Below are positions 15,198 through 63,773 of a stretch of DNA of 64,000 bases, one piece after another. The notes below the pieces were generated by a model. It was not told the origin of the DNA. It did not search any database and worked only from the letters and a program-made list of their open reading frames with translations. Positions within the stretch are counted from its first letter, which is position 1, and each line of letters opens with the position of its first letter. The translations under genes were made by a program, and so were the position numbers. Source of the DNA: Camelus dromedarius (lineage: Eukaryota); NCBI RefSeq assembly GCF_036321535.1, contig NC_087436.1:51710001-51774000 (forward strand), given 5' to 3'.

Positions 15198-15780
15198 CTT
15201 AACATAACAGCATTAGAAACAAAATGATTGAACAAAACATTTCAGCAAACAATTCTAGGTTAATATAGGTACATGTGATATCTCCAGAGATCAGTTTATT
15301 TCATTTTCCAACACGTTCTTAAAGTCAACTGTTTTTAGAATTAATTTCAAAAGTCTGAATTTGTAGACCAAGATTAACTCGAAGAAGAGTTAACTACTAC
15401 CTTGACCTAAAACTTCCTGGAGAGATCAAAGGCAGGAGAGTGAATCCAAAACATAATAAACTCCCTGTAAGATGCAAAAGCAGAATTATGTCTCCTTATT
15501 TGTACTTGTCTATTGTAAATAAGCCAGGGTCAACATGGACAAATTATGGCCCAAGTCTGTTTTGCCTGACAGTGACAGTGATGCAAGCACGTTCAGATCT
15601 CGTTCCAGTGAGACACTTCCAGGAAGGACACAGTCCCTCCCTAAGAGAAGCACAGTTTCTTCAAGTTTGGAATATGAATGTAGTCCTTTCTACTACGAGG
15701 CTTTTGGAACAAGAGCATGTCACAAACCATTTTGGCATCCGAACCAAGAAACCAGCTTTCAAACAGCATTTCTTTCTTAC

Positions 15781-16045
15781 AGGTGTTGAAAGGTGCTACA
15801 CCCCAAGCAGTAAACAGCAGTGATTCATTATCATACTGGCGTAGAAAAACAGATGACCATGAACTGTGTGAATGGATTAGTCTATTACTGGGAGTTGTGG
15901 TAATGAATCATCATTTCCACTCAATACTCCTCCCTTCTTTTCACTTTGAGCTGCTTCCCTTCTTGAAGGAAGACATTATAAGGAAGAGGCTTTATAAGCC
16001 AGAACTGGGAAATGATGTGCTTCAGCTCTGACTCAGAAAGCTGGC
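15781..16045 (-). pseudogene. Pseudo-exon with an RGS 'FWL' motif
   Basis: Acceptor atttcctag and donor gtaaga. Reads QLSESELKHIISQFWLIKPLPYNVFLQEGKQLKVKRREEY*. Confidence 0.45.
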
Positions 16046-22888: not shown

Positions 22889-23382
22889 GTGAAGTGTAAA
22901 ACAAAGAATGTTGCTGACATCCAGTTCTACAAGAATTCAGTCATTAGTCACTACAGTCACTGACCTACAGTCCACCCAGAAAGAATTCAGGGCAGAGATC
23001 AAGATGAGACACTCTGTGCTCTGGGCAAACAACAAGCCCTTAGGGCAAACAACAAGCCCTTAGGGTAAACAACAGGCCCTTAGATAGGGATATTTCAAAA
23101 AAAATTTTTTTATGAACCCAGATTCTTGCATCCTACCATACTTAGAAAAAAATCATTAACTAAAGTCATTAACTGAGATATCTGTTCCTCTGATTAGCAA
23201 TAACCTAGTGCTGGATGGCATGTACTCCTTAACCAAAGTCATGTATATACTGCCTCCCCACCCCCGTCTCCAGAGCAGCTCCTCAGAGCTATCTGAGAGG
23301 CTGTCTCCTGCGCTATAGTTCCCAGTAAGACACTGAATGAAACTCAGTTCTCAGCTCTTACATTGTGTTCTCTCAGATGACA
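22889..23382 (+). mobile_element. ERV1-type solo LTR with an internal 20-bp tandem repeat
   Basis: LTR-like motifs (cagagcagctcctcagagctatctgagaggctgtctcc, tgaatgaaactcagttctcagctc). GGGCAAACAACAAGCCCTTA occurs three times at 23023-23082. Confidence 0.6.
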
Positions 23383-25728: not shown

Positions 25729-26503
25729 TTGTCAAACAAATCTGATAAATGATCATTCTGTTGTAGACCCAGAGTTCACATTAACACATAAATAGAACTG
25801 AGAAGCTTTATATTAAAGGACAAGTTTAAATTTTGCACAGTATTTGCAAAATTGATTTCACCACAGAGCTATTTATTTGTATAACCCTTAACAGTCTATA
25901 GGACTGGGCTCAATATAACATTTAGGGGAAAACAGTGGTGATCTTGAACTTGTTATTTCTGCTACAATGTGAGCTCGGAGGCATAGATATAAAGTTTCTA
26001 TTACAAGCCATACACATAATACCTACTTAAATACTTGATGACAGTTATCATTGTTTTAATAAATAATTGTCTCAGAACTAAGGATATGCTCTAAAATCTT
26101 TACCACCACCATAAAGCCAAGTGTTCTATTTTTAATAATTTTCATCACTATTGGTTTACTTCTGCTCACTTTTTTAATATAAAGTTCTACCTACTTTTAT
26201 ATTTATAAGATTCAAAGGAAAATATTTCAGGGCCAATCATTTTTGAAAGTAAATAGTTTATTTGAAATAGTTATTAAATGGCCTGTTTTTATGACTTGCT
26301 ATTGAATCCTATCTTGCTAATGCTTCAGAACTAAAAACCACACAATGTTTCAAAAAATAAAACTTGGGGCATTTAATTACAAATTGGTGTCATGAAAATA
26401 ATCAAGATGTCTTCTAGTTTTTGGTAATCAACACAACACAGGTATTTCTAACAAATCCCAATAATTTTAAAATAAAACTGGAATTGCAGCTCTCATTTGT
26501 TAT

Positions 26504-28497
26504 TCCATAGAACACTACTAGAGCTGATCGAAGAATTCAGCAAGGTAGCAGGTTACAAGATTAACGTTCAAAAATCAGTTGCATTTCTTTACACTAACGA
26601 TCAATCAAGAGAAAAAGAAAATAAAGAAACAATCCCCTTTAAAATAGCACCCAAAGTAATACAATACCTAGGAATAAATCTAACCAAGGAGGTGAAAGAA
26701 TTACTCACAGAAAACTATAAACCATTGATGAAGGAAATTAAAGATTTTAAAAAATGGAAAGATATCCCATGCTCTTGGATAGGAAGAATCAATATTGTTA
26801 AAATGGTCACATTGCCCAAGGCAATCTACAGATTTAATGCAATCCCTATCAAATGACCAAGGACATATTTCACAGAAATAGAACAAATCATAACAGAATT
26901 TATATGGAACCATCAAAGACCTAGAATTGCCAAAGCATTACTGAAGAGAAAGAAAGAGGCTGGAGAAATAACTCTCCCAGACTTCAGACAATACTACAGA
27001 GCTACAGTCATCAAGACATCATGGTATTGGTACAAAAACAGACATATGGACCAATGCAACAGAACAGAGAGCCCAGAAATGAACCCACAAACTTTTGGTC
27101 AACTAATCTTTGACAAAGGAGGCCAGAATATACAATGGAATAAAGACAGTCTCTTCAGCAAATAGTGTTGGGAAAACTGGACAGCAGCATGTAAAGCAAT
27201 GAAGGTAGAACACTCCCTTACACCATATATAAAAATCAACTCAAAATGGATCAAAGACTTAAACATAAGGCAAGATACAATAAACTTCCTAGAAGAAAAC
27301 ATAGGTAAAACATTATCTGACATACATCTCAAAAATGTTCTCCTAGAACAGTCTACCCAAGCAACAGAAATAATAGCAGGAATAAATAAATGGGACCTAA
27401 TGAAACTTACAGGCTTCTGCACAGCAAAGGAACCCATAAGCAAAACAAAATGACAACCTACAGAATGGGAGAAAATTTTTGCAAATGAAGCTGACAAAGG
27501 CTTTATCTCCAGAATATACAAGAAGCTCATATGACTTAATAGGAAGAAAAAAAAAAAAAAACCCAATCGAAAAATGGGCAAAAGACCTAAACAAGCAATT
27601 CTCCAAGGAAGACATACAAACAATCAACAGGTACATGAAAAAATGCTCAATATCACTAATTATCAGAAAAATGCAAATCAAAACTACAATGTCACCTCAC
27701 ACCAGTCAGAATGGCCTTCATTCAGAAGTCCACAAATGACAAATGCTGGAGAGGCTGTGGAGAAAGGGGAACCCTCCTACACTGCTGGTGGGAATGTAGT
27801 TTGGTTCAGCCACTGTGGAAAACAGTATGGAGATTCCTCAAAAGACTAGGAACAGACTTACCATATGACCCAGGAATCCCGCTCCTGGGCATATATCCAG
27901 AAGGAACCCTACTTCAAAATGACACCTGCACCCCAATGTTCATAGCAGCACTATTTACAATAGCCAAGACATGGAAACAGCCTAAATGTCCATCAACAGA
28001 TGACTGGATAAAGAAGGTATGGTATATTTATACAATGAATACTATTTAGCCATAAAAACCGACAACATAACACCATTTGCAGCAACATGGATGCACCTGG
28101 AGAATGTTATTCTAAGTGAAGTAAGCCAGAAAGAGAAAGAAAAATATCATATGGGCTCTCTCATATGTGGAATCTAAAATTACAAACAAACAAACAAACA
28201 AACAAAACATAAATACAAAACAGAAATAGATTCATAGACATAGAGTACAAACTTGTGTTGCCAAGGGGGTGGGGGGTGGGAAGGGATAGACTGGGATTTC
28301 AAAATGTAGAATAGATAAACAAGATTATACTGTATAGCGCAGGGAAATATATACAAGATCTTATGGCAGCTCATAGAGAAAAAATGTGACAGTGAATATG
28401 TATATGTTCATGTGTAACTGAAAAATTATGCTCTACACTGGAATTTGACACAACATTGTAAAATTATTATAAATCAATAAAAAAAGTTAAAAAAAAT
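26504..28497 (+). mobile_element. 5'-truncated LINE-1 (3' ORF2, 3'UTR and A-tail), young lineage-specific subfamily
   Basis: ORF2 peptides [38 protein letters not shown] and [18 protein letters not shown]; aataaa and A-tail near 28476-28497. Confidence 0.95.
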
Positions 28498-28739
28498 ACC
28501 ACACATGAGATACTTTGAATTAACCACAGGAAAGCACAATGAGTTTTGTTTATTGAAATAACTTCATAAGGATAATGACAAGTAGGCTTTCCGGGCATTT
28601 TGAATTTGAGAACTATTTTTTATAGAATTATGTCTCTTTCTGTCTTTTGAGAGAGGTTTAAGATTCTAACGCTCTACAAGTACCATGAATTATATTCTAG
28701 TAGAAAAGGGTGAAAATAATCAACAGCAGGTGCTAAAAC

Positions 28740-35867: not shown

Positions 35868-36253
35868 TTGTATTTCATAGTGAGTCATGTCTGCAGCAAT
35901 CTAAGGCTTGTCTTGCTTCATTGTAACCACCTGCTTTCTCATCAGCTCAGTCGATGAAAACTTCAGGTCAAACTACAATATATGTTTTTCCTGATTTTTG
36001 TGTCCAGACAAAAGCCTTCAAATGAATGTTGGAAAACTACAGCCATGTATTTCACCCAAAACCAAAGAAGCCCAAGATCTGAACACTCAAAGAGAAAGCT
36101 TGACACTTAAATACAGAATTCTACACATTCATTTCATAGACCAGTTACAAAAAGTTTACATACGATCTTATCTTCATCTGCAGATACATGCTTCTCTTCT
36201 CTAGTTGAATATGTTTTTGCTCAAGGGAGAACCTGATAGAGGATGCCAATATT
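35868..36253 (-). pseudogene. Two linker pseudo-exons (36164-36253, 90 nt; 35868-35972, 105 nt)
   Basis: Bounded by ctatag/gtatgt and tgtag/gtgagc. They read EYWHPLSGSPLSKNIFN* and FDLKFSSTELMRKQVVTMKQDKP*IAADMTHYEIQ. Confidence 0.5.
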
Positions 36254-36570: not shown

Positions 36571-38212
36571 CTTTATCTTCAGGGGATTCACAGAATTTGT
36601 TGTAAAGCCAGTGAACGATGTAAATATTCCTTCCAAACATAGCCTGAAGTATTTGCATCTCAAAACTTTACCATAGAAGGGCAGGAGACACAGATTTTCA
36701 AATCTACCCACAGATAAGGAGGAAGAACAAACTACTCTCTTCAGAAAGCCTACCCCAACTAATGCTACACTTACCATATCCCTGTCATGGGAATTAACAT
36801 TCTTATCCCACACTGCGTTTCCCACAGTCTGTAAAACACTTAAAAATCCTGGAATGTGCTAACACAGTTGCTACATTTTTCTACATTAAGTTATAGAATA
36901 TCCTGATGTTCAATTAAATTCACCAATTACCAATATGCAAATCATTAATTAAGCTATAGTAATGGTATTCTCAAAATTCTTTAAGCAATGAGGCCAAGAT
37001 TCTGAGAATATTTTGTTTATATTTTGCCTTTATTTTTATAAATTCTTACAAATGTGTCTTTCTGGTCTTAGATAATTTATATCTTTTATATCATTTACTT
37101 AAGCATTCAGATGTTCAAAGGTCAGATCAATTTCATAGCTCTCTTTTATCATTAGATCCAGTAAATCATGTGAGTTTAAAAACAACTGAATTCAAAAGAC
37201 ATATATGGAGCAGCATACCAATTTTCATTTGAATCTGTGTATGTACACAAGTGGCAGGATGTTAACTTGGAGCTCATCAATTCTCAAAAGACAAAATTTT
37301 CCAATGAAACAAACAAACAAAACAGGTTTATCTGGGATTTTCCATGATGAATAGCTTAAATACAGATTTTGGACCCAAATATGTTTAAAGTTTTCATTGA
37401 AATTCTACAGTCAAGATGGATCCACACAACTGTAGGGGTACTTTGCAAATCCGAATAATTAGAAAATTGTTTTTCTAGCAAGTAGCTGAGTCAAGAGGTT
37501 GGTTCTAGCTCAAACTCTGAAACCAACTGTGTGATGCTGAGTATATCAACTAACCTCTCTAGACATCCATTCTCTCATTTGAGAAGTAAGAAAGTTTTAA
37601 AGGAGGTATTAATTCCCTGTTATTTCAAAATTATGGTTACTTTATATAGGTAGATCAGTGATTAGCCAGTTGGAGGAAATAAGTTAGGGGTGATGACCTG
37701 ATAAACTGAGTAGGCAAGAGGACAAGGGAAGCTCTGATTTACAGCATTTACCAATTCCCATGGTGTAAATATTTCCTCTTTTGCCAATTTCAAGCTGCCT
37801 ATAATGTCACTGAACACAAAGTTGGGAAGAGATAAGCATATTTAGCTTTCAGGGACTGGTACAAGCAGGTTCCAGTACACATTTGACTCCATTCTTCAGA
37901 TCCAAAGCTAGTCTCAAGCTGTAGCTGACAAACGTCCATTTTCACTTTAAAATGATGCCTTAATAACAAACCAAAGCAAAGCTTTCCTGAGGAACATTTT
38001 CCTATTTGGATGAAAAGATACACAGTACCCATTTGTTTTGGCCTTGGGGAAATAAAAGTGCAAACTATTATCCCTACATGAAATGCACAAAACACATCTC
38101 AGTTTCACTTCCTGCTAAAGTAGGTTGCAAGTTTGCAAATTCTCATTCAACACAGGAGCTCAAGTGAGTTTTTTTGCTCATAGAGGCTGAAAATACATCT
38201 CTTAACATCATG
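36571..38212 (-). pseudogene. RGS-like domain split over pseudo-exons 38029-38212, 36775-36828 and 36571-36671
   Basis: Reads EQKNSLELLC*MRICKL...GIIVCTFISPRPKQM|DCGKR...|...YFRLCLEGIFT(frameshift)VHWLYNKFCESPEDK. Donors at 36774 (gtaagt) and 36570 (gtaagg). Confidence 0.65.
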
Positions 38213-39390: not shown

Positions 39391-40688
39391 GGTTAAATAT
39401 GCATTTTGTAGACAAAAATGAAACATTTGCTTTTTTTCCTCTACCTGATCCCTCCAAAACATGGAAATTTCAAGCATTCTTTTCACAATATAGTTAGTTA
39501 TTTAAATAAATTCAATAAAAATTTATTCTCCTTATAACAATGAAATTAGAAATATTGGTTATATTACCATGGCTTTGATTAGAATATCACATGAGAGAGG
39601 CATGTATAGATTCAGATACTACCAGGCAGCTTTAAGGAACTACTCAGACTCTGATATGGCTTCCTCATCTTGAAAGGTTTTTAGGAGTTCAATCTGAGAG
39701 TCCTTGTTCTAACAAAGCAGTCTTAAAAGAGCTTATATAGCCAACAACTATTCTTGCTGCACTTACGCAAATAAATATGCCAAGCTTAGAACAAATAAAT
39801 TAGCTTTACTTTCACTGCCTTTGACAAAAATGGGGGCAACTGTGGAGAGAGAAATTATTTTCACACCTTTGTCTATATTATATTCTAATCCTGTTAATTG
39901 TCTTCGAGGTTTTGTTATATACCTGTAAACTGTACTGGATCCTGAATTCTTCTTGTTTCCTCAAATATCTGGCTACAAATCCCCAAACTAACATTTCAAT
40001 CCCTAAGAACAAAGATTGTCTTGAATCTCCTTGGAAGAGACTATATTAGGTCTTCCTAACCACTCAGATGGCAGCCAAACTTCAGGGACTTGAATCTTAG
40101 ATACACATCTCACAGCTGAAAAAGGCTCCACCGGACATCTGGTCCTGCACGAAAGCTGGAGTACTCCAAATAAAGCTGAGCAGGAAGAGAAGTATCTGAT
40201 ATTGAGACAGACTACTTCCTCCCAAGATGCTGGATCAAGACTTCATATTTTCGCTAAACATAAACCCTTTCTTCTTCCCTTTCTTTCCTTTATTCAGGCA
40301 TTGACCTGGAAAGATGTCATCATCTTTATCTCTCAGGCCATTACTAAGGGAAGGTGGGAGGAATAATCTGTCAGACTGCTGGATTTGTCATCAAAAACAT
40401 TATGCTAGAGACCCCCGGTCCATTTCCCTGTCTCTGATTAGCACCCAAAGTTGAGGAACTTTGTCTCCTGGCTTTATGGGAAAAAGGGACACAAGGGAAA
40501 CAAAGCCAGAATAAAACTGCCTGTGTGATCTGTAGACCCTTACAATTTTACTGGTCTCCATGGCTGTTACCTTTCCAACCCTGTGTGACAGATTCAAACA
40601 ATAACAACCTGGAAACAAATATGACTCTGGGTTTGCCTACATATGGAGAGATTTTCTCTGTTGGGTCAGATCAAGTGCCAAAGAACAT

Positions 40689-41000
40689 GTGATCAGAAAT
40701 CTTCCCCTAACATTAGGAGAGCTAGTCAATGCTACAGCCAAAGCAATAGCAGCCCAACAACAATCACTTGATTTGTTGGCTAAAACAGTTTTGGATAATT
40801 GTATAGCCAATGATTACTCACTTTCTGAACAAGGAGGCATTTACACAATAGCAGATATCACCTTTTGTACGTGGATAAATGCCTCTGGAGAGGTAGAAAT
40901 TCAGTTACAAGATCGAGGAACAAGCACACTAGCTACAACAAGTTTCACCTGGTTCTCCATGGTCCTTTCATTTGTTCAGCTGGCTTACCTTCAAGTCTAG
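40689..41000 (+). pseudogene. env: ERV env TM-subunit remnant
   Basis: AIAAQQQSLDLLAKTVLDNCIANDYSLSEQGGIYTIADITFCTWINASGEVE contains a heptad repeat, a degenerate immunosuppressive domain (cf. LDNRIALDYLLAEQGG) and a decayed CX6CC. Confidence 0.85.
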
Positions 41001-53531: not shown

Positions 53532-56106
<2,575 letters not shown>

Positions 56107-56861
56107 AAAAATCTGACTGTAATCTACAAACCATATTTTTCAATGGTTCCCAAGTTCACACACAGTCACCTTCTCCATTTCCAGCCCTCTCCCTCTCCAT
56201 ACATTTTATTGGAAAAACAGGAAACCTATTGTAGTGGAAAAATAATAAAAAGATAGCCAATAATCCAAAGTCCCCGAGTTTCCTACCTGCCATCTACTAT
56301 GGCCACAGACAACGTTTCTTTACACTTGTCTGGTCAGTACACAGAGACTATAGACAGGCAATCGCAGTCTTTCACTAACTGGCATTTTGACTCCAAACCC
56401 CTATTTTCCTGGTGAGCTGGCTTGGCCCACCCATGGATCATGAGAACTTCTCTGAGAGACAGGATGAGGAATGGAGAGAAGGAGGTATTTTTCACCACAT
56501 AAACTTTAAAGCTCAGGATCTCAAAGATAACTCAATGAGCAGAATGCAAAGGAAAACTTGCCCTTAGATTCTATACTTTATCATCCTTTCTCAAGACACA
56601 TCAAAAGATCTAGCTTCTACTACTATGGCACAGTTTTCTCTTTTCCTTCGAGAGAGTAAGATAGACTTAAACAACCTAGGAAGAAAACGTGTATGGCAAC
56701 AATTTCCATTTTTTCCTTCAAGGTGAGTTGAAACATGCTGCCATAGTATGTGAATTTTCACTGATTATGTTAGTCATCCATCCATTTATTCACTTAACGA
56801 ATGTTCATTGAGTACCTACTACATGTTATGCTTTGTTCTAGGAGTTCAGGATATAGTAGTG

Positions 56862-57412
56862 TGGAAACAAACGAAGACCAACCAAAGGAGTAAAGCAAAC
56901 ACTGCTTATTCTGAGCTTGCTATGGTAAGGGAGTTAGCCACTGTCACTTGTATTTTGGCAGGGACTCAAAGACAAATGGAAAAGCTTTATAATGGAAAAA
57001 GGGGGAGGCATCAGGTGTGCCTTGATTGGAAGCTGTTGGCATGGGGAACCTGTAGGAGAGCCAACTAGAAGCAGGGGATCCTCTGTAACTGGTTAGGGGT
57101 ACACAGTTGGCTTTCTGTGGTTGATCTTAAGTTGGAAGTAGGGACAAAAATTATGGAAGCTGTCAATTATTAGTTAGGTCCTGGCCATATTGGGCTGATT
57201 GTTACAGAAATTATTATTTAGCTTCCTAGACTGTCACTAGAGATAGCAATCAAGCTTCCTGCAAGTGTGATTCATAGCAGGTGAGTTTCCTGGGTTGTTT
57301 ATTGTAGATAAGGGGATTGGTTTCCCAGGAAGGTTGCTGCAGGTTGTAGGTCAAAGTCCTATTTTTATGTATGGTTGGACCACTGTCCATTTGCATGTTT
57401 AATCTCTCAGCA
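56862..57412 (-). mobile_element. ERV1-type solo LTR (MER34/MER39-like, family tentative)
   Basis: The minus strand begins tgctgagagattaaacatgcaaatggacagtggtccaacc and ends ...agcaagctcagaataagcagtgtttgctt. It interrupts an L2-like sequence. Confidence 0.6.
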
Positions 57413-57804
57413 GTAAACAAACAAAACAAACAAAAGTCCTTGTACAGTGTATGTTCTACAAGGGATATTACACTGCTTCTTTCTCTAGATCTTTTTGCAC
57501 TTATTTCATACAAGAGGTAAAAAGTATGCAGTCCTTTTCTTTAATCATTGGCATCTTACAATTTGGACTACATTATGTCCACATATAATATTAAAATATT
57601 CACACATTCATTTAAAAACATGTAATGATCACCTCCTATGTGCCGGGAACTATTACAGTCCGTAAAGATTCAGTAGTGAACAAAGTCCTGTCCTCACTAA
57701 GCTTGTATCTGGTTAAAGGGACATAAATAATAACAATGACAAATAAAATAATTTGTGTCTGTTAGAAGGTGATAAATGGTATGAAAATTAAAAAGCAGGA
57801 CAGT

Positions 57805-57878
57805 GACTAAGATGGCGGAGTTGGAAGACCCTGAGCTCACACCAAAATTACAGCTCCGTACAGAGTAACCGTCAATGT
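57805..57878 (+). mobile_element. Short L1 5'-end fragment
   Basis: aagatggcggagttggaagaccctgagctcac resembles the YY1-site-containing start of laurasiatherian L1 5'UTRs. Confidence 0.55.
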
Positions 57879-60800
57879 TGTTGTGTGGTTAGTGCTTCAG
57901 CTGTTGGTCAGACAGCAGCAGTGAAGGCGTCAGTACTGAACTGCTGGTGTCTTGACCATCCTGTGATGAAGGGAAATTTACTGTCTTCATTTTACAGAGG
58001 GTAGGTTGAGGCGTGGAGTAAGGAGGCGCAGGTCTCAGTCACCAAGCTGTGACTAAGACCCATCTCACTGACTGTCAGTGTTTATTCAACTAATTATGAT
58101 TCGAGCTCTTCATAATAGCTGGCTTCAGATTTTAAATATAGATAAAATTTAATAATAAGTGTGAATGATTTTAAATACCAAACTCTAACCTTTGCAGTAC
58201 TGCACTGGCAAAAGAATGCTCTACAACATCTTGATCTGTAAGGAAATGGGAAAACTTCCTCATCCCCGTCCCACTCTGTGGGACTCTACACACCATTTTC
58301 CAGTGGTTCTGATTTAGCCACAAGTAACTGTTCATTGATATGAGTATCAGTTGAGATCCACTGACAGCACCATATCTTCTAATAGTTTTTCTTCACCAAA
58401 ACCACCAGGTGGAGGTTACAGTCATACTGCTCTGTAAAAATGAATATGGGCTTAGTGGCAGCTACTGAAACTCATGGGTAAACATAATAGGATGTTATTC
58501 AGATTTAATTTGAATCGTATAATCCAAAAAGCAAAAGCCCTTTGTTCATCAAATAGGTCACTTTATGAATATTACAAAAAGAGTACCTCTTAAAGGAATA
58601 TTAATGTGAGATTGGTGTCTGTACTTTACATACATGGTTTTATATAATGTGGCTCTATCAGTTAAACTCACATTTATAAGAATTTGTAGTTTCAATGGGA
58701 AAAGTACTTACCTTTCTTAAAATTAGAAGACATTCTTTCCTATTGTCAATTCTTCCCAAAAGTGTCAGCTGAAATATTTCTCCCCCTAAAAACAGAAAAA
58801 TTAATTACTTAGGATCAAAGAGGGATTTGGATATTTTCTGCAAACTCCCAAGTTTGACTTAATTGGGTGGAGGAGTTTTTTTTAATATAATTAAGGCTAG
58901 AAAACATCATTAAATGGAACAAAATGGAACAAGGAAGAAGATACATTTCAACACAACAAAAATCTATAGTGATACAGGTAAAGTACTAAGAAATTTCACT
59001 CCATGGAAAAAAATTATTACTGCAAAAACAAATTAGCCACAAAGAGAACAAGATGTTGCTATTACTTTGAAATAGATCCTGAATAAGTTTTTTGGGTTTT
59101 TATCTGTTTTGTTTTGTATCACATACGTGGTTTTGTTAGTGTCCCATGGTGTACTTAATGTACATTTGGTAAAATTTCTATTTGAATTTCCTTTTCCTTC
59201 CTGTTTATAATAAACATTTTCAGTGGGTTGTCCTTGCCTTTGTCATTGTGAACTGCATTGTCTTAAGTTTCTTGGTGTTTAAAGAGTGGGCTCTAGCAAC
59301 ACTCAGGGCAAGGCTCAAAACTCAGCCTGCCACTTGCTAGATGTTTTGACCCTAAATTCTTTGTGTCTCTATTTCCACATCCTTACTTCACTCTGAGAGA
59401 GGACTGATTTTATAGGAGGCAGTGAGTATTACATGTGCCAAGACACATCAAGCCCTCAGTACACAGAGCTGGCCCTCAATAAAGGTTGTCAGGTATTAAC
59501 ACAACCAAACCCACCCTACGCTGGGCTTCTACTTCCGATTCATTGTGTGGTTTCAGATCCTACTCCACCTTCCAGACCAGGGATTTTTAGAGGTTTTAGA
59601 TAAGGTGATGATAGACACCTCTTACAGTTTTTTCAGAGGGTGGATGGTTATTTGAACATTTTCTAGTGTTGTTTATGACTCACAAAGCAAGAGGCACCTG
59701 GAAGTCTCTGATTCTGTCTTCAATAAACCCCAACTGGCTTAGACCCATCAGTCAGCAGCAAATCAAGCTGTAGACAGGGCTAAAAGCTTCTGCTCTAGGG
59801 TCAGAATTCAGTCTGCTGCTTCAAGACACTCTAAGAATACTTTGAAACCCAGGACTTGGCATAATCTGTCAATCTGAAGCTATCCTTGCCTTGTCAGAAC
59901 ATCTCTCCCCGCTAAAAACCAAGAGTCCTTACAGCCCTATCCTCCTGAGGCTTTCAGCCCTCCTTTTGCTCAACATTTCCTGTTCAGAATAGGATCTGGA
60001 TCTCTCCTTTGTATAAACAGAAGTTCTACTAAAATATTTTTCCTTAAACGAAGGAACAGTTTCCTGAGTATTCAATTTTGCCAATAGTCTTGGTGCAACA
60101 GGTGCAGCCTCCTGCAGGCTACTTTTCAAATGGCATATTTCTGATCCTGATATAGAGTGTTCATATGCTGTTATTAAAGTCCTTACAGAATAGATCAGAA
60201 ACCAGAAGGGGTTAGTAATCATTTTTAACCTGGGCTCTTGAATTATGCAGGTAGACCTGGCAGGTAGGCACAACTCAACTCTGTCTGGAGAAGTGCAGGC
60301 TAATTGGTACAGGTGGGAAGCAGACTGCAGTGGAGAAGTGGGGCGTGGGTAGAACGATCAGATGATAGAGGACCATATATGCCATCATGAGGAATTTGGA
60401 CTCTATCTAGGAAACATGTCTTTCCAAACCTGGATGCATATCAAAATCATCTGAGAAGTTTTTCTTTTGTTAACAGAATTTTCCAAGTCCCATTCCAGAC
60501 CTATAACATCAGAATATTTACAGAGAATATCTACATACGTTTTATGCTTTCCTAATCCAGGCCTGAACGTTTATTGCTTCCCATATCTCACTGGAACAGA
60601 AATGGACATCAAAATAGAAATTTTTTAAAGTTTACTAATTTTTTAAGTCCTGAAATAGAATTTCATGCTGAACGTGAATTATATGGAAACACAGAGCATG
60701 GTGTAAGGGTCCTAGTTGATCATGATTAGGTATTTGACATTCTTTCAGCATTTAGGTGTTAGAATACAATTATTCTGTATTCATTACTTATTCTTTGATG

Positions 60801-61843: not shown

Positions 61844-62000
61844 TTGTTTCCTCATCTCTTGTACTCTTTGCATGAGTCATTTGCTGATACTGGTAGTAAA
61901 CTGAAGTAAAAGCAAATGTGAACATGATCTGAATGGTGAGCCTCATCAATCATCGAATCCAGGCCAGCCCTTTCCAGTCTGATCGAAGATCTTTAATGAC
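61844..62000 (-). pseudogene. Pseudo-exon, N-terminal half of an RGS-like domain
   Basis: Acceptor gttctag and donor AA|gtgagt. Reads VIKDLRSDWKGLAWIR*LMRLTIQIMFTFAFTSVYYQYQQMTHAKSTRDEET. Confidence 0.55.
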
Positions 62001-63300: not shown

Positions 63301-63773
63301 AGACTCTCAGTGGGGGTCTCAACTACTTCATGCACAGCTCTCCTTACGGAAGTAGATGTATTACTTTTATTCACTGAAGAGTGCAGTGTGAGCACATTTT
63401 TCTCTTCCAATTTTTTACTTACTCTTTGGTCTTCATGCAAATCTTTTGGCATAGAGAACAGGCATCATTACTTGCTGTTCCATCTACCTCTTGCATTCTG
63501 GCTTGAACAGAATCATTTCTCTCAGAGGAGTGGATTTTTCCAATTAAGATCTGGACAAATTAGCACTATATTTCACATGAGCCACTAAAACTGTATTATG
63601 CTTAGCTGCATCAGGCCACTTTGGTCCTGGATGAATTTCATAATGCTGCAAAATATTGCCTCTTCCTCCTAATTTTCTAACCAAGTAGTCTCCATCCTGT
63701 TGAGTTTACATCTATTACAAATCTTTGAAATAGTGTTCACAACTTACCTAGGTCTCAGAAATCTTTGAAAACA
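63301..63773 (-). pseudogene. Large pseudo-exon (possibly two)
   Basis: Acceptor tctcatttttttttcag and donor gtaagt at 63300. Reads CFQRFLRPR*VVNTISKIC...EEEAIFCSIMKFIQDQSGLMQL; the last open stretch is PKDLHEDQRVSKKLEEKNVLTLHSS...VETPTES. Confidence 0.55.

What the first reader, a model, noticed from the sequence alone, without database searches (positions are those of the whole stretch)
56432..60181. Complete RGS domain reconstructed across three pseudo-exons, with the conserved Trp codon split by an intron
Joining 59684 (donor gtgagt) to 58785 creates T|GG = Trp in LLKTESETSRCLLLWGEIFQL, comparable to RGS4 FLKSEYSEENIDFW. The 74-nt exon is stop-free and joins in phase 0 to VV*VYL. Further on, LHSAH*VIFEILSFKVY places A, IF and Y exactly as in FDEAQKKIFNLMEKDSY. 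Just upstream, LDLLLTD and MGLSQ occur in adjacent frames, consistent with small indels. This is the strongest single piece of evidence for the gene.
Basis: partly seen in the sequence, partly recalled or inferred. Interest (0 to 1): 0.75.

Follow-up and report, generated by a model that had tools for sequence, protein, structure and literature searches.

The report
Possible fossil RGS-like gene, unproven
This stretch of mammalian DNA holds exon-shaped pieces that cannot make a protein today and may be the remains of a long-dead gene with G-protein-regulator-like domains, but the resemblance is too faint to prove, so at best it is an ordinary ancient pseudogene.

Summary
The splice geometry is as described: AG/GT flanks, a split T|GG Trp, a stop-free 74-nt piece with a top-ranked donor, and a phase-0 join. 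The claim of a "complete RGS domain" is not shown. The RGS4 comparison scores at chance: 1090 of 1500 random spliced constructs do as well. A strict RGS pattern, a real RGS seed, Pfam, PDB, ESM Atlas and four protein searches gave no RGS or intact relative. The spliced product itself was never scanned against Pfam or folded. Segment 3 carries the chance number of stops. An orthologous stretch from another mammal is no better conserved than the flanks, differs by 7 frameshifts, and by inference lacks the Trp. Best reading, about 0.5: an ancient, neutrally decaying relic of a multi-RGS gene like RGS22, not a GAP. Main rival, about 0.4: pattern-seeing in neutral DNA. The scan had not noted this on other DNA.

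The parts
59684..60181 (-). Segment 1, putative long pseudo-exon. One frame is open for the first 83 codons (possible linker); the last 84 nt hold the RGS-like start spread over three frames.
   Evidence: Stops per frame 14/4/11; fewest-stop frame matched by 659 of 4000 random windows. Ortholog P0006: identity 101/161 with 7 frameshifts.
59684..59767 (-). Alternative shorter exon from a stronger acceptor that begins exactly at LDLLLTD
   Evidence: Acceptor in the top 1.2% of AG, length 84 nt
58712..58785 (-). Segment 2, 74-nt exon-like piece, phase 1 to phase 0; the best-supported element
   Evidence: Donor AAG/GTAAGT top 0.06%, acceptor top 2.3%; one of 8 strong internal exon candidates on both strands; no homologue found
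56432..56675 (-). Segment 3, exon-like at its acceptor only; 3' end undefined (donor after 56431 or after 56287)
   Evidence: Acceptor top 2.1%; 5 stops, the chance level; no Pfam, PDB or protein hit
63748..63773 (-). 26-nt micro-exon candidate reading CFQRFL, like the end of an RGS domain; joins segment 1 in the phase of its open frame
   Evidence: Acceptor top 0.65%, donor top 0.33%; join open for about 92 codons; 4 of 356 comparable joins do as well, 3 of the 4 being this exon
61844..61900 (-). 57-nt phase-neutral exon candidate between the micro-exon and segment 1
   Evidence: Acceptor top 3.7%, donor top 0.78%; one stop in the chained frame
36571..36703 (-). Exon candidate ending in YNKFCES, like the end of an RGS domain
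   Evidence: Donor top 0.11%; only minus-strand match of 5 to the pattern [YF].[RK]F[LIVMC].S
35868..36177 (-). Exon candidate with FL...L.FW in RGS register; in frame with the 36703-36571 piece
   Evidence: Acceptor poor (top 43%). No Pfam, PDB, Atlas or fold hit; tandem-domain scan not significant.
56860..57416 (.). LTR-like insertion inside intron 2 (recognised by eye; family not tested)
   Evidence: Sequence; label recalled, from no call

Best explanation
An ancient unitary pseudogene. The pieces are decayed exons of a minus-strand gene that encoded several tandem, non-canonical RGS (RH) domains, built like RGS22. Shown: no intact frame exists; the lesions are present in other animals of the species; segment 1 has drifted neutrally against another mammal. 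Inferred: the gene was already dead before the split from that mammal; the ancestral protein was a scaffold and not a G-alpha GAP, because the EEN and EVN(Asn) motifs are absent; a ciliary or sperm role is borrowed from RGS22 by analogy only. Today it makes no protein, at most a non-coding transcript that may reuse the old splice sites.
For: A domain-end motif lies within 45 nt of 2 of 34 top donors, both on the minus strand, P = 0.026; other cut-offs give 0.04-0.14. Phases chain from the 63773-63748 micro-exon into the open frame of segment 1 and across 36571/36177. P0007 has sense codons where the window has a stop in that frame. Neutral drift: identity 101/161 in segment 1 against 16/25 and 37/54 in the flanks, with 7 frameshifts; P0006's Met-Lys forces a TGA in the RGS frame. 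All sampled words are held by 7 runs from 3 studies not marked as a possible source (15 of 24 rows in all). RNA holders X16 and X18 (one study, reproductive-system RNA-seq) and X17 (kind guessed) hold 21-23%, against 18-25% expected from exons alone and 4% if the library were all DNA. RGS22 has four tandem domains that lack G-alpha-binding residues (PMC13443885).
Against: No library supports an RGS call: Pfam gave no RGS hit for any unspliced piece; PDB sequence searches none; Atlas none usable. No intact relative. Strict pattern: 1181 of 1803 constructs score as well. RGS4 motifs: 1090 of 1500. Tool-derived RGS seed P0010: 1602 of 1803. Whole-window spliced scans put the locus at 13.1 and 8.7, below null maxima of 17.5-23.2 and 15.8-29.1; about 758,000 constructs are possible. 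The spliced domain has no repeat in the window (43 against 39-54 for 30 shuffles). The tandem scan misses the 36-kb pair. Segment 3 shows no frame signal. The Trp is not kept in P0006. A different frame of the same join also shows an FW-E-E-L motif, which shows how easily such motifs arise.
Confidence: 0.5

Rival explanations
1. Chance resemblance. The region is neutral single-copy DNA, or a lncRNA with ordinary AG/GT exons, that never coded for an RGS domain. With free choice of splice sites, frames, gaps and stops, a few hydrophobic residues and a Trp can be lined up with an RGS template.
For: Every test that I did not tune myself is at chance (RGS4 motifs, 91 strict, 113). Stops in segment 3 are at the random rate; a stop-free 74-nt frame occurs in 2411 of 4000 windows. 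No exon-specific conservation against P0006. The donor that makes the Trp is weak (top 12%). Strong internal exon candidates are about as common on the plus strand (3) as on the minus strand (5).
Against: Rank 1 of 1803 with the loose pattern; domain-end motifs at 2 of 34 top donors, both minus; phase-consistent chains. The negative tests have little power for non-canonical domains: P0010's 26 PDB matches at E <= 0.001 were canonical-type RGS proteins only.
Confidence: 0.4
2. The pieces are relic exons of a dead protein-coding gene of another family, and the RGS label is wrong.
For: The exon-like signals (strong donors, phase chain, 142-codon open frame at 60357-59929, fifth longest in the window) do not depend on the RGS reading.
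Against: No other family is hit at a meaningful level; the motifs that do recur are RGS-like.
Confidence: 0.07
3. An intact or recently broken RGS gene (for example the camelid copy of RGS22 or RGSL1), or assembly errors that hide an open frame.
For: The 74-nt piece is open and has a perfect donor; RNA runs hold part of the region.
Against: Stops in every frame of segments 1 and 3; the same words in independent runs; an intact mammalian ortholog should share 5-residue words with segment 3, yet none scored; P0006 is broken in the RGS frame too.
Confidence: 0.02

Closest known systems
RGS22 (four tandem non-canonical RGS domains; radial-spoke component; PMC13443885, passages and one results section read)
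   Different: No sequence match to RGS22 was shown; the locus is broken, whereas RGS22 is described as highly conserved and functional in mouse. The comparison is one of architecture only.
Canonical RGS proteins (RGS4, RGS5, RGS16; Pfam PF00615)
   Same: Order of a few residues: LL.D, [FY]LK.E, Trp, a helix with V/Y/L, then A...I...L.
   Different: No EEN, no EVN(Asn128-type) motif, no AQ, no DS[YF]PRF; Trp-to-Ala spacing 70 against 60; no HMM hit; scores at chance.
RGSL1 (multi-domain RGS-like gene; recalled, seen only in search listings)
   Same: Recalled as a long RGS-like gene of similar build.
   Different: Not tested by sequence; no intact mammalian protein matched any piece.
Genes with lost coding potential and the lncRNAs derived from them (PMC5577775, passages read)
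   Same: Gene lost early in mammals, exons decayed, locus possibly still transcribed.
   Different: The parent gene is not identified here; 'RGS' and 'regulator of G' do not occur in that paper's 4 held supplementary files, though their tables may list genes by identifier only.

Membership tests
RGS domain (Pfam PF00615) | Score over the curated cut-off (23.9 bits) | tested here: inconclusive
   No RGS hit for unspliced pieces read with X at stops. The spliced product was not scanned, and single exons are too short for power.
RGS domain (Pfam PF00615) | Similarity to a verified RGS domain | tested here: not met
   Seed P0010 (Pfam E 1e-11): spliced product scores 27; 1602 of 1803 control constructs score as well. 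One distant seed, low power.
RGS domain (Pfam PF00615) | Nine-helix RGS fold | not testable with these tools
   The spliced product was not folded. The 36-kb piece alone gave pLDDT 45 and no Foldseek match.
Canonical RGS GAPs (R4/R7/R12/RZ) | EEN before FW and E[VI]N[IL]D loop with the G-alpha-contacting Asn (RGS4 Asn128, PMC7572916; motifs seen) | tested here: not met
   The product has TSR and no E-x-N at those places; strict pattern at chance.
   spacing 70 against 60.
RGS22-like multi-RGS proteins | Several tandem RGS-fold domains | tested here: inconclusive
   Motif clusters at 63.8, 59.8-56.5 and 36.7-35.9 kb, but no internal repeat and no significant tandem scan.
RGS22-like multi-RGS proteins | Sequence homology to RGS22 or RGSL1 | not testable with these tools
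   No such sequence or profile was obtained; database searches from the window found none.
Unitary (unprocessed) pseudogene | Disabled frame with intron-exon structure kept in place | tested here: met
   Stops and frameshifts in AG/GT-bounded pieces; present in independent runs. This holds for the DNA whether or not it once coded.
Unitary (unprocessed) pseudogene | Intact syntenic ortholog in an outgroup | not testable with these tools
   No genome is held for the window and no vertebrate genomes can be searched.

The most novel reading that the evidence does not exclude
The window holds the fossil of an unnamed third RGS22/RGSL1-type gene with at least three tandem RGS-fold domains over more than 28 kb. 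It was lost early in placental mammals, is still intact in non-placental vertebrates as a ciliary or sperm scaffold, and is still spliced as a non-coding RNA in the camelid reproductive tract.
Probability: 0.3. Interest if true: 0.5.

Novelty: new member of a known kind. Interest (0 to 1): 0.25.

Why it matters
If real, it adds one more anciently lost vertebrate gene and points to an unstudied RGS22-like protein in outgroups. RGS22 has just been tied to the radial spokes of motile cilia (PMC13443885), so a lost paralog would bear on how mammalian sperm and cilia changed. It reveals no new mechanism in this genome, and ancient gene relics that survive as lncRNA are a described class (PMC5577775). 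If it is chance, it is a useful example of how splice choice plus frameshifts can produce a convincing-looking domain.

Tried and rejected
Protein searches: HMMER over 1.84 billion representatives with one frame of segment 1 gave 4 hits, all frames called on orthologous mammal-type DNA (P0006 runs through both flanking introns); word searches with segment 3, P0006 and the frame around segment 2 gave none. Metagenome scans for related loci: 0 of 55 and 0 of 90 candidate stretches confirmed. Rfam: 0 matches. Weak Pfam and PDB rows (NADH_dhqG_C, zf-C5HC2, alphavirus capsid, L28, Csf1, VPS13A; E 0.008-1.2) were treated as chance. Cluster look-up could not be made. Hunting for RGS seeds: motif scans of genome and viral contigs gave one true RGS locus (L011) among 166 loci screened; PF00615 searches of 401 bacterial genomes and 8 viral records gave 0 over the cut-off. 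A single seed allowed no profile. Internal repeat test negative. Single-sequence fold of the 36-kb piece uninformative. Literature: no paper held both 'RGS domain' and 'unitary pseudogene'; searches showed no description of such a relic in their listings; supplement searches of PMC5577775 (4 files) and PMC10195156 (1 file) found no RGS entry. The supplement of PMC13443885 was not seen, and subscription papers are not in the library. Rejected: a high-copy transposon origin of segment 1 (only 4 hits); a canonical GAP; an intact gene.
Full report
Context. The window is mammalian DNA: G+C about 37% and CpG at 0.09-0.23 of expectation, with L1 pieces recognised by eye. No genome is held for the window, and Rfam finds nothing.

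Observation. The three segments, their AG/GT flanks, the split T|GG codon, the stop-free 74-nt piece and the phase-0 join are all present. With an approximate, recalled splice matrix, the donor at 58712 is in the top 0.06% of GT sites and the acceptors at 58785 and 56675 in the top 2.3% and 2.1% of AG sites. The donor at 59684, on which the Trp depends, is only top 12%, and the acceptor at 60181 top 8.7%. Position 56432 is not a splice boundary.

Is it more than chance? As stated, no. A stop-free frame in 74 nt occurs in 2411 of 4000 random windows, and segment 3 has 5 stops against a mean of 4.8. The first RGS4 motif fits only with a gap; the second scores 15, which 112 of 127,900 positions reach. 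Both motifs together: 1090 of 1500 random three-piece constructs score as well. In a spliced, frameshift-tolerant scan the best path ending in segment 3 scored 13.1, fifth on its strand and under the three control maxima of 17.5-23.2. A strict canonical pattern gave 1181 of 1803. To avoid relying on memory I fetched a natural RGS domain (P0010 from viral contig locus L011; Pfam E 1e-11; 26 PDB matches). The spliced product scored 27 against it and 1602 of 1803 controls did as well. That seed is distant and matched only canonical-type RGS proteins, so this test has little power for divergent domains.

Libraries. Pfam gave no RGS hit for any unspliced piece. PDB sequence searches and the ESM Atlas gave none either. 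Four protein searches found no intact relative; one search tested only one frame of segment 1.

Other mammals. One search returned four proteins that are frames called on orthologous DNA; P0006 runs from the upstream intron into the downstream one. Aligned to the window, identity is 101/161 in segment 1 against 16/25 and 37/54 in the flanks, with 7 frameshifts inside the segment. That is neutral drift. Two inferences follow from P0006's residues. Its Met-Lys pair forces a TGA in the RGS frame, so that lineage is broken too. Its Ser opposite the last Leu implies C, not T, as the first base of the split codon, giving Arg; since CpG decays to TpG, the camelid T may be the derived state. P0007 and P0008 align without frameshift in the frame of segment 1 that has the fewest stops, and P0007 has sense codons where the window has a stop. 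The query was in that frame, so this is biased. All sampled words of 56300-60400 are held by 15 of 24 listed runs, 7 of them from 3 studies not marked as a possible source, so the lesions are not an assembly slip.

What speaks for a relic. I wrote the pattern after seeing the sequence, about 758,000 constructs are possible, and the same pattern run across the window gave 8.7 against 28 null maxima of 15.8-29.1. (2) A domain-end motif lies just before 2 of 34 top donors, at 63748 and 36571, both on the minus strand (P = 0.026; 0.04-0.14 at other cut-offs). (3) The 26-nt piece 63773-63748 joins segment 1 in the phase of its open frame; 4 of 356 comparable joins do as well, 3 of them from this same piece. 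(4) Pieces 36703-36571 and 36177-35868 join in frame, giving a domain-end motif, an acidic linker and FL...L.FW in register. Against this, the second acceptor is poor, the tandem scan does not rank the pair, and the two putative domains do not align above shuffles. (5) Two reproductive-system RNA-seq runs of one study and one run of guessed kind hold 21-23% of the words, close to the 18-25% expected from exons and above the 4% expected from DNA alone.

How it most likely works. Shown: no protein can be made from these pieces, and segment 1 is not under visible constraint. Inferred, about 0.5: they are exons of a gene with several tandem RGS-fold domains that died before the camelid and P0006 lineages split. 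The product lacks EEN, the E[VI]N loop with the G-alpha-contacting Asn (RGS4 Asn128; PMC7572916, passages), AQ and DS[YF]PRF, and has a Trp-to-Ala spacing of 70 against 60 in RGS5. If it was an RGS-fold protein it worked like RGS22, whose four domains lack G-alpha contacts and which serves in radial spokes (PMC13443885; passages and one section), and not like RGS4. Decay could also have erased those residues. The main rival, about 0.4, is that the motifs are chance in neutral or lncRNA DNA; another frame of the same join also shows an FW motif.

Known and new. It fails membership of the canonical RGS GAPs. Membership of the RGS22-like group could not be tested. As a class, genes lost early in mammals whose loci persist as lncRNA are described (PMC5577775; passages). 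Searches showed no description of this relic in their listings; supplement searches of PMC5577775 and PMC10195156 found no RGS entry, though tables may list genes by identifier only. The scan's notes hold no look-alike.

Verdict. Observation partly confirmed; RGS identity unproven; at best a new member of a known kind. Interest 0.25.

Noticed in passing
L011:844-1953 (-), IMG/VR contig of 278,565 bases: A 369-aa protein with a hydrophobic, multi-pass-looking N-terminal part fused to a true RGS domain (Pfam E 1e-11; PDB RGS5/RGS16/RGS4 matches).
   Followed up: partly
window 36703-35868 (-): Two exon-like pieces that join in frame with RGS-like end and start motifs; other frames of the second piece show EVFID and YNEARQ, like the RGS loop and last helices. 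Not significant in scans.
   Followed up: partly
window 63773-63748 (-): 26-nt piece with strong acceptor and donor, reading CFQRFL.
   Followed up: partly
window 52740-52450, 51598-51546, 43601-43484, 47250-47099 (-): Further exon-like pieces downstream of segment 3 with one or two good splice sites; no family hit for the 52.7-kb piece, the others not scanned.
   Followed up: partly
window 56653-56722 (+): A strong plus-strand exon candidate overlaps the start of segment 3, so RNA from this region could be antisense.
   Followed up: no
window about 53540-56130 and 26500-28500: Two truncated L1 copies with ORF2 fragments, inserted antisense to the proposed gene; labels by eye.
   Followed up: no
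window about 40600-41000 (+): A 131-codon frame resembling a retroviral envelope transmembrane part within a decayed ERV-like block; label by eye.
   Followed up: no
window 15359-15907: Overlapping long open frames on both strands (154 codons +, 88 codons -) outside obvious repeats; not examined.
   Followed up: no
window 23023-23083: Three tandem copies of a 20-base unit, 95% matched.
   Followed up: no
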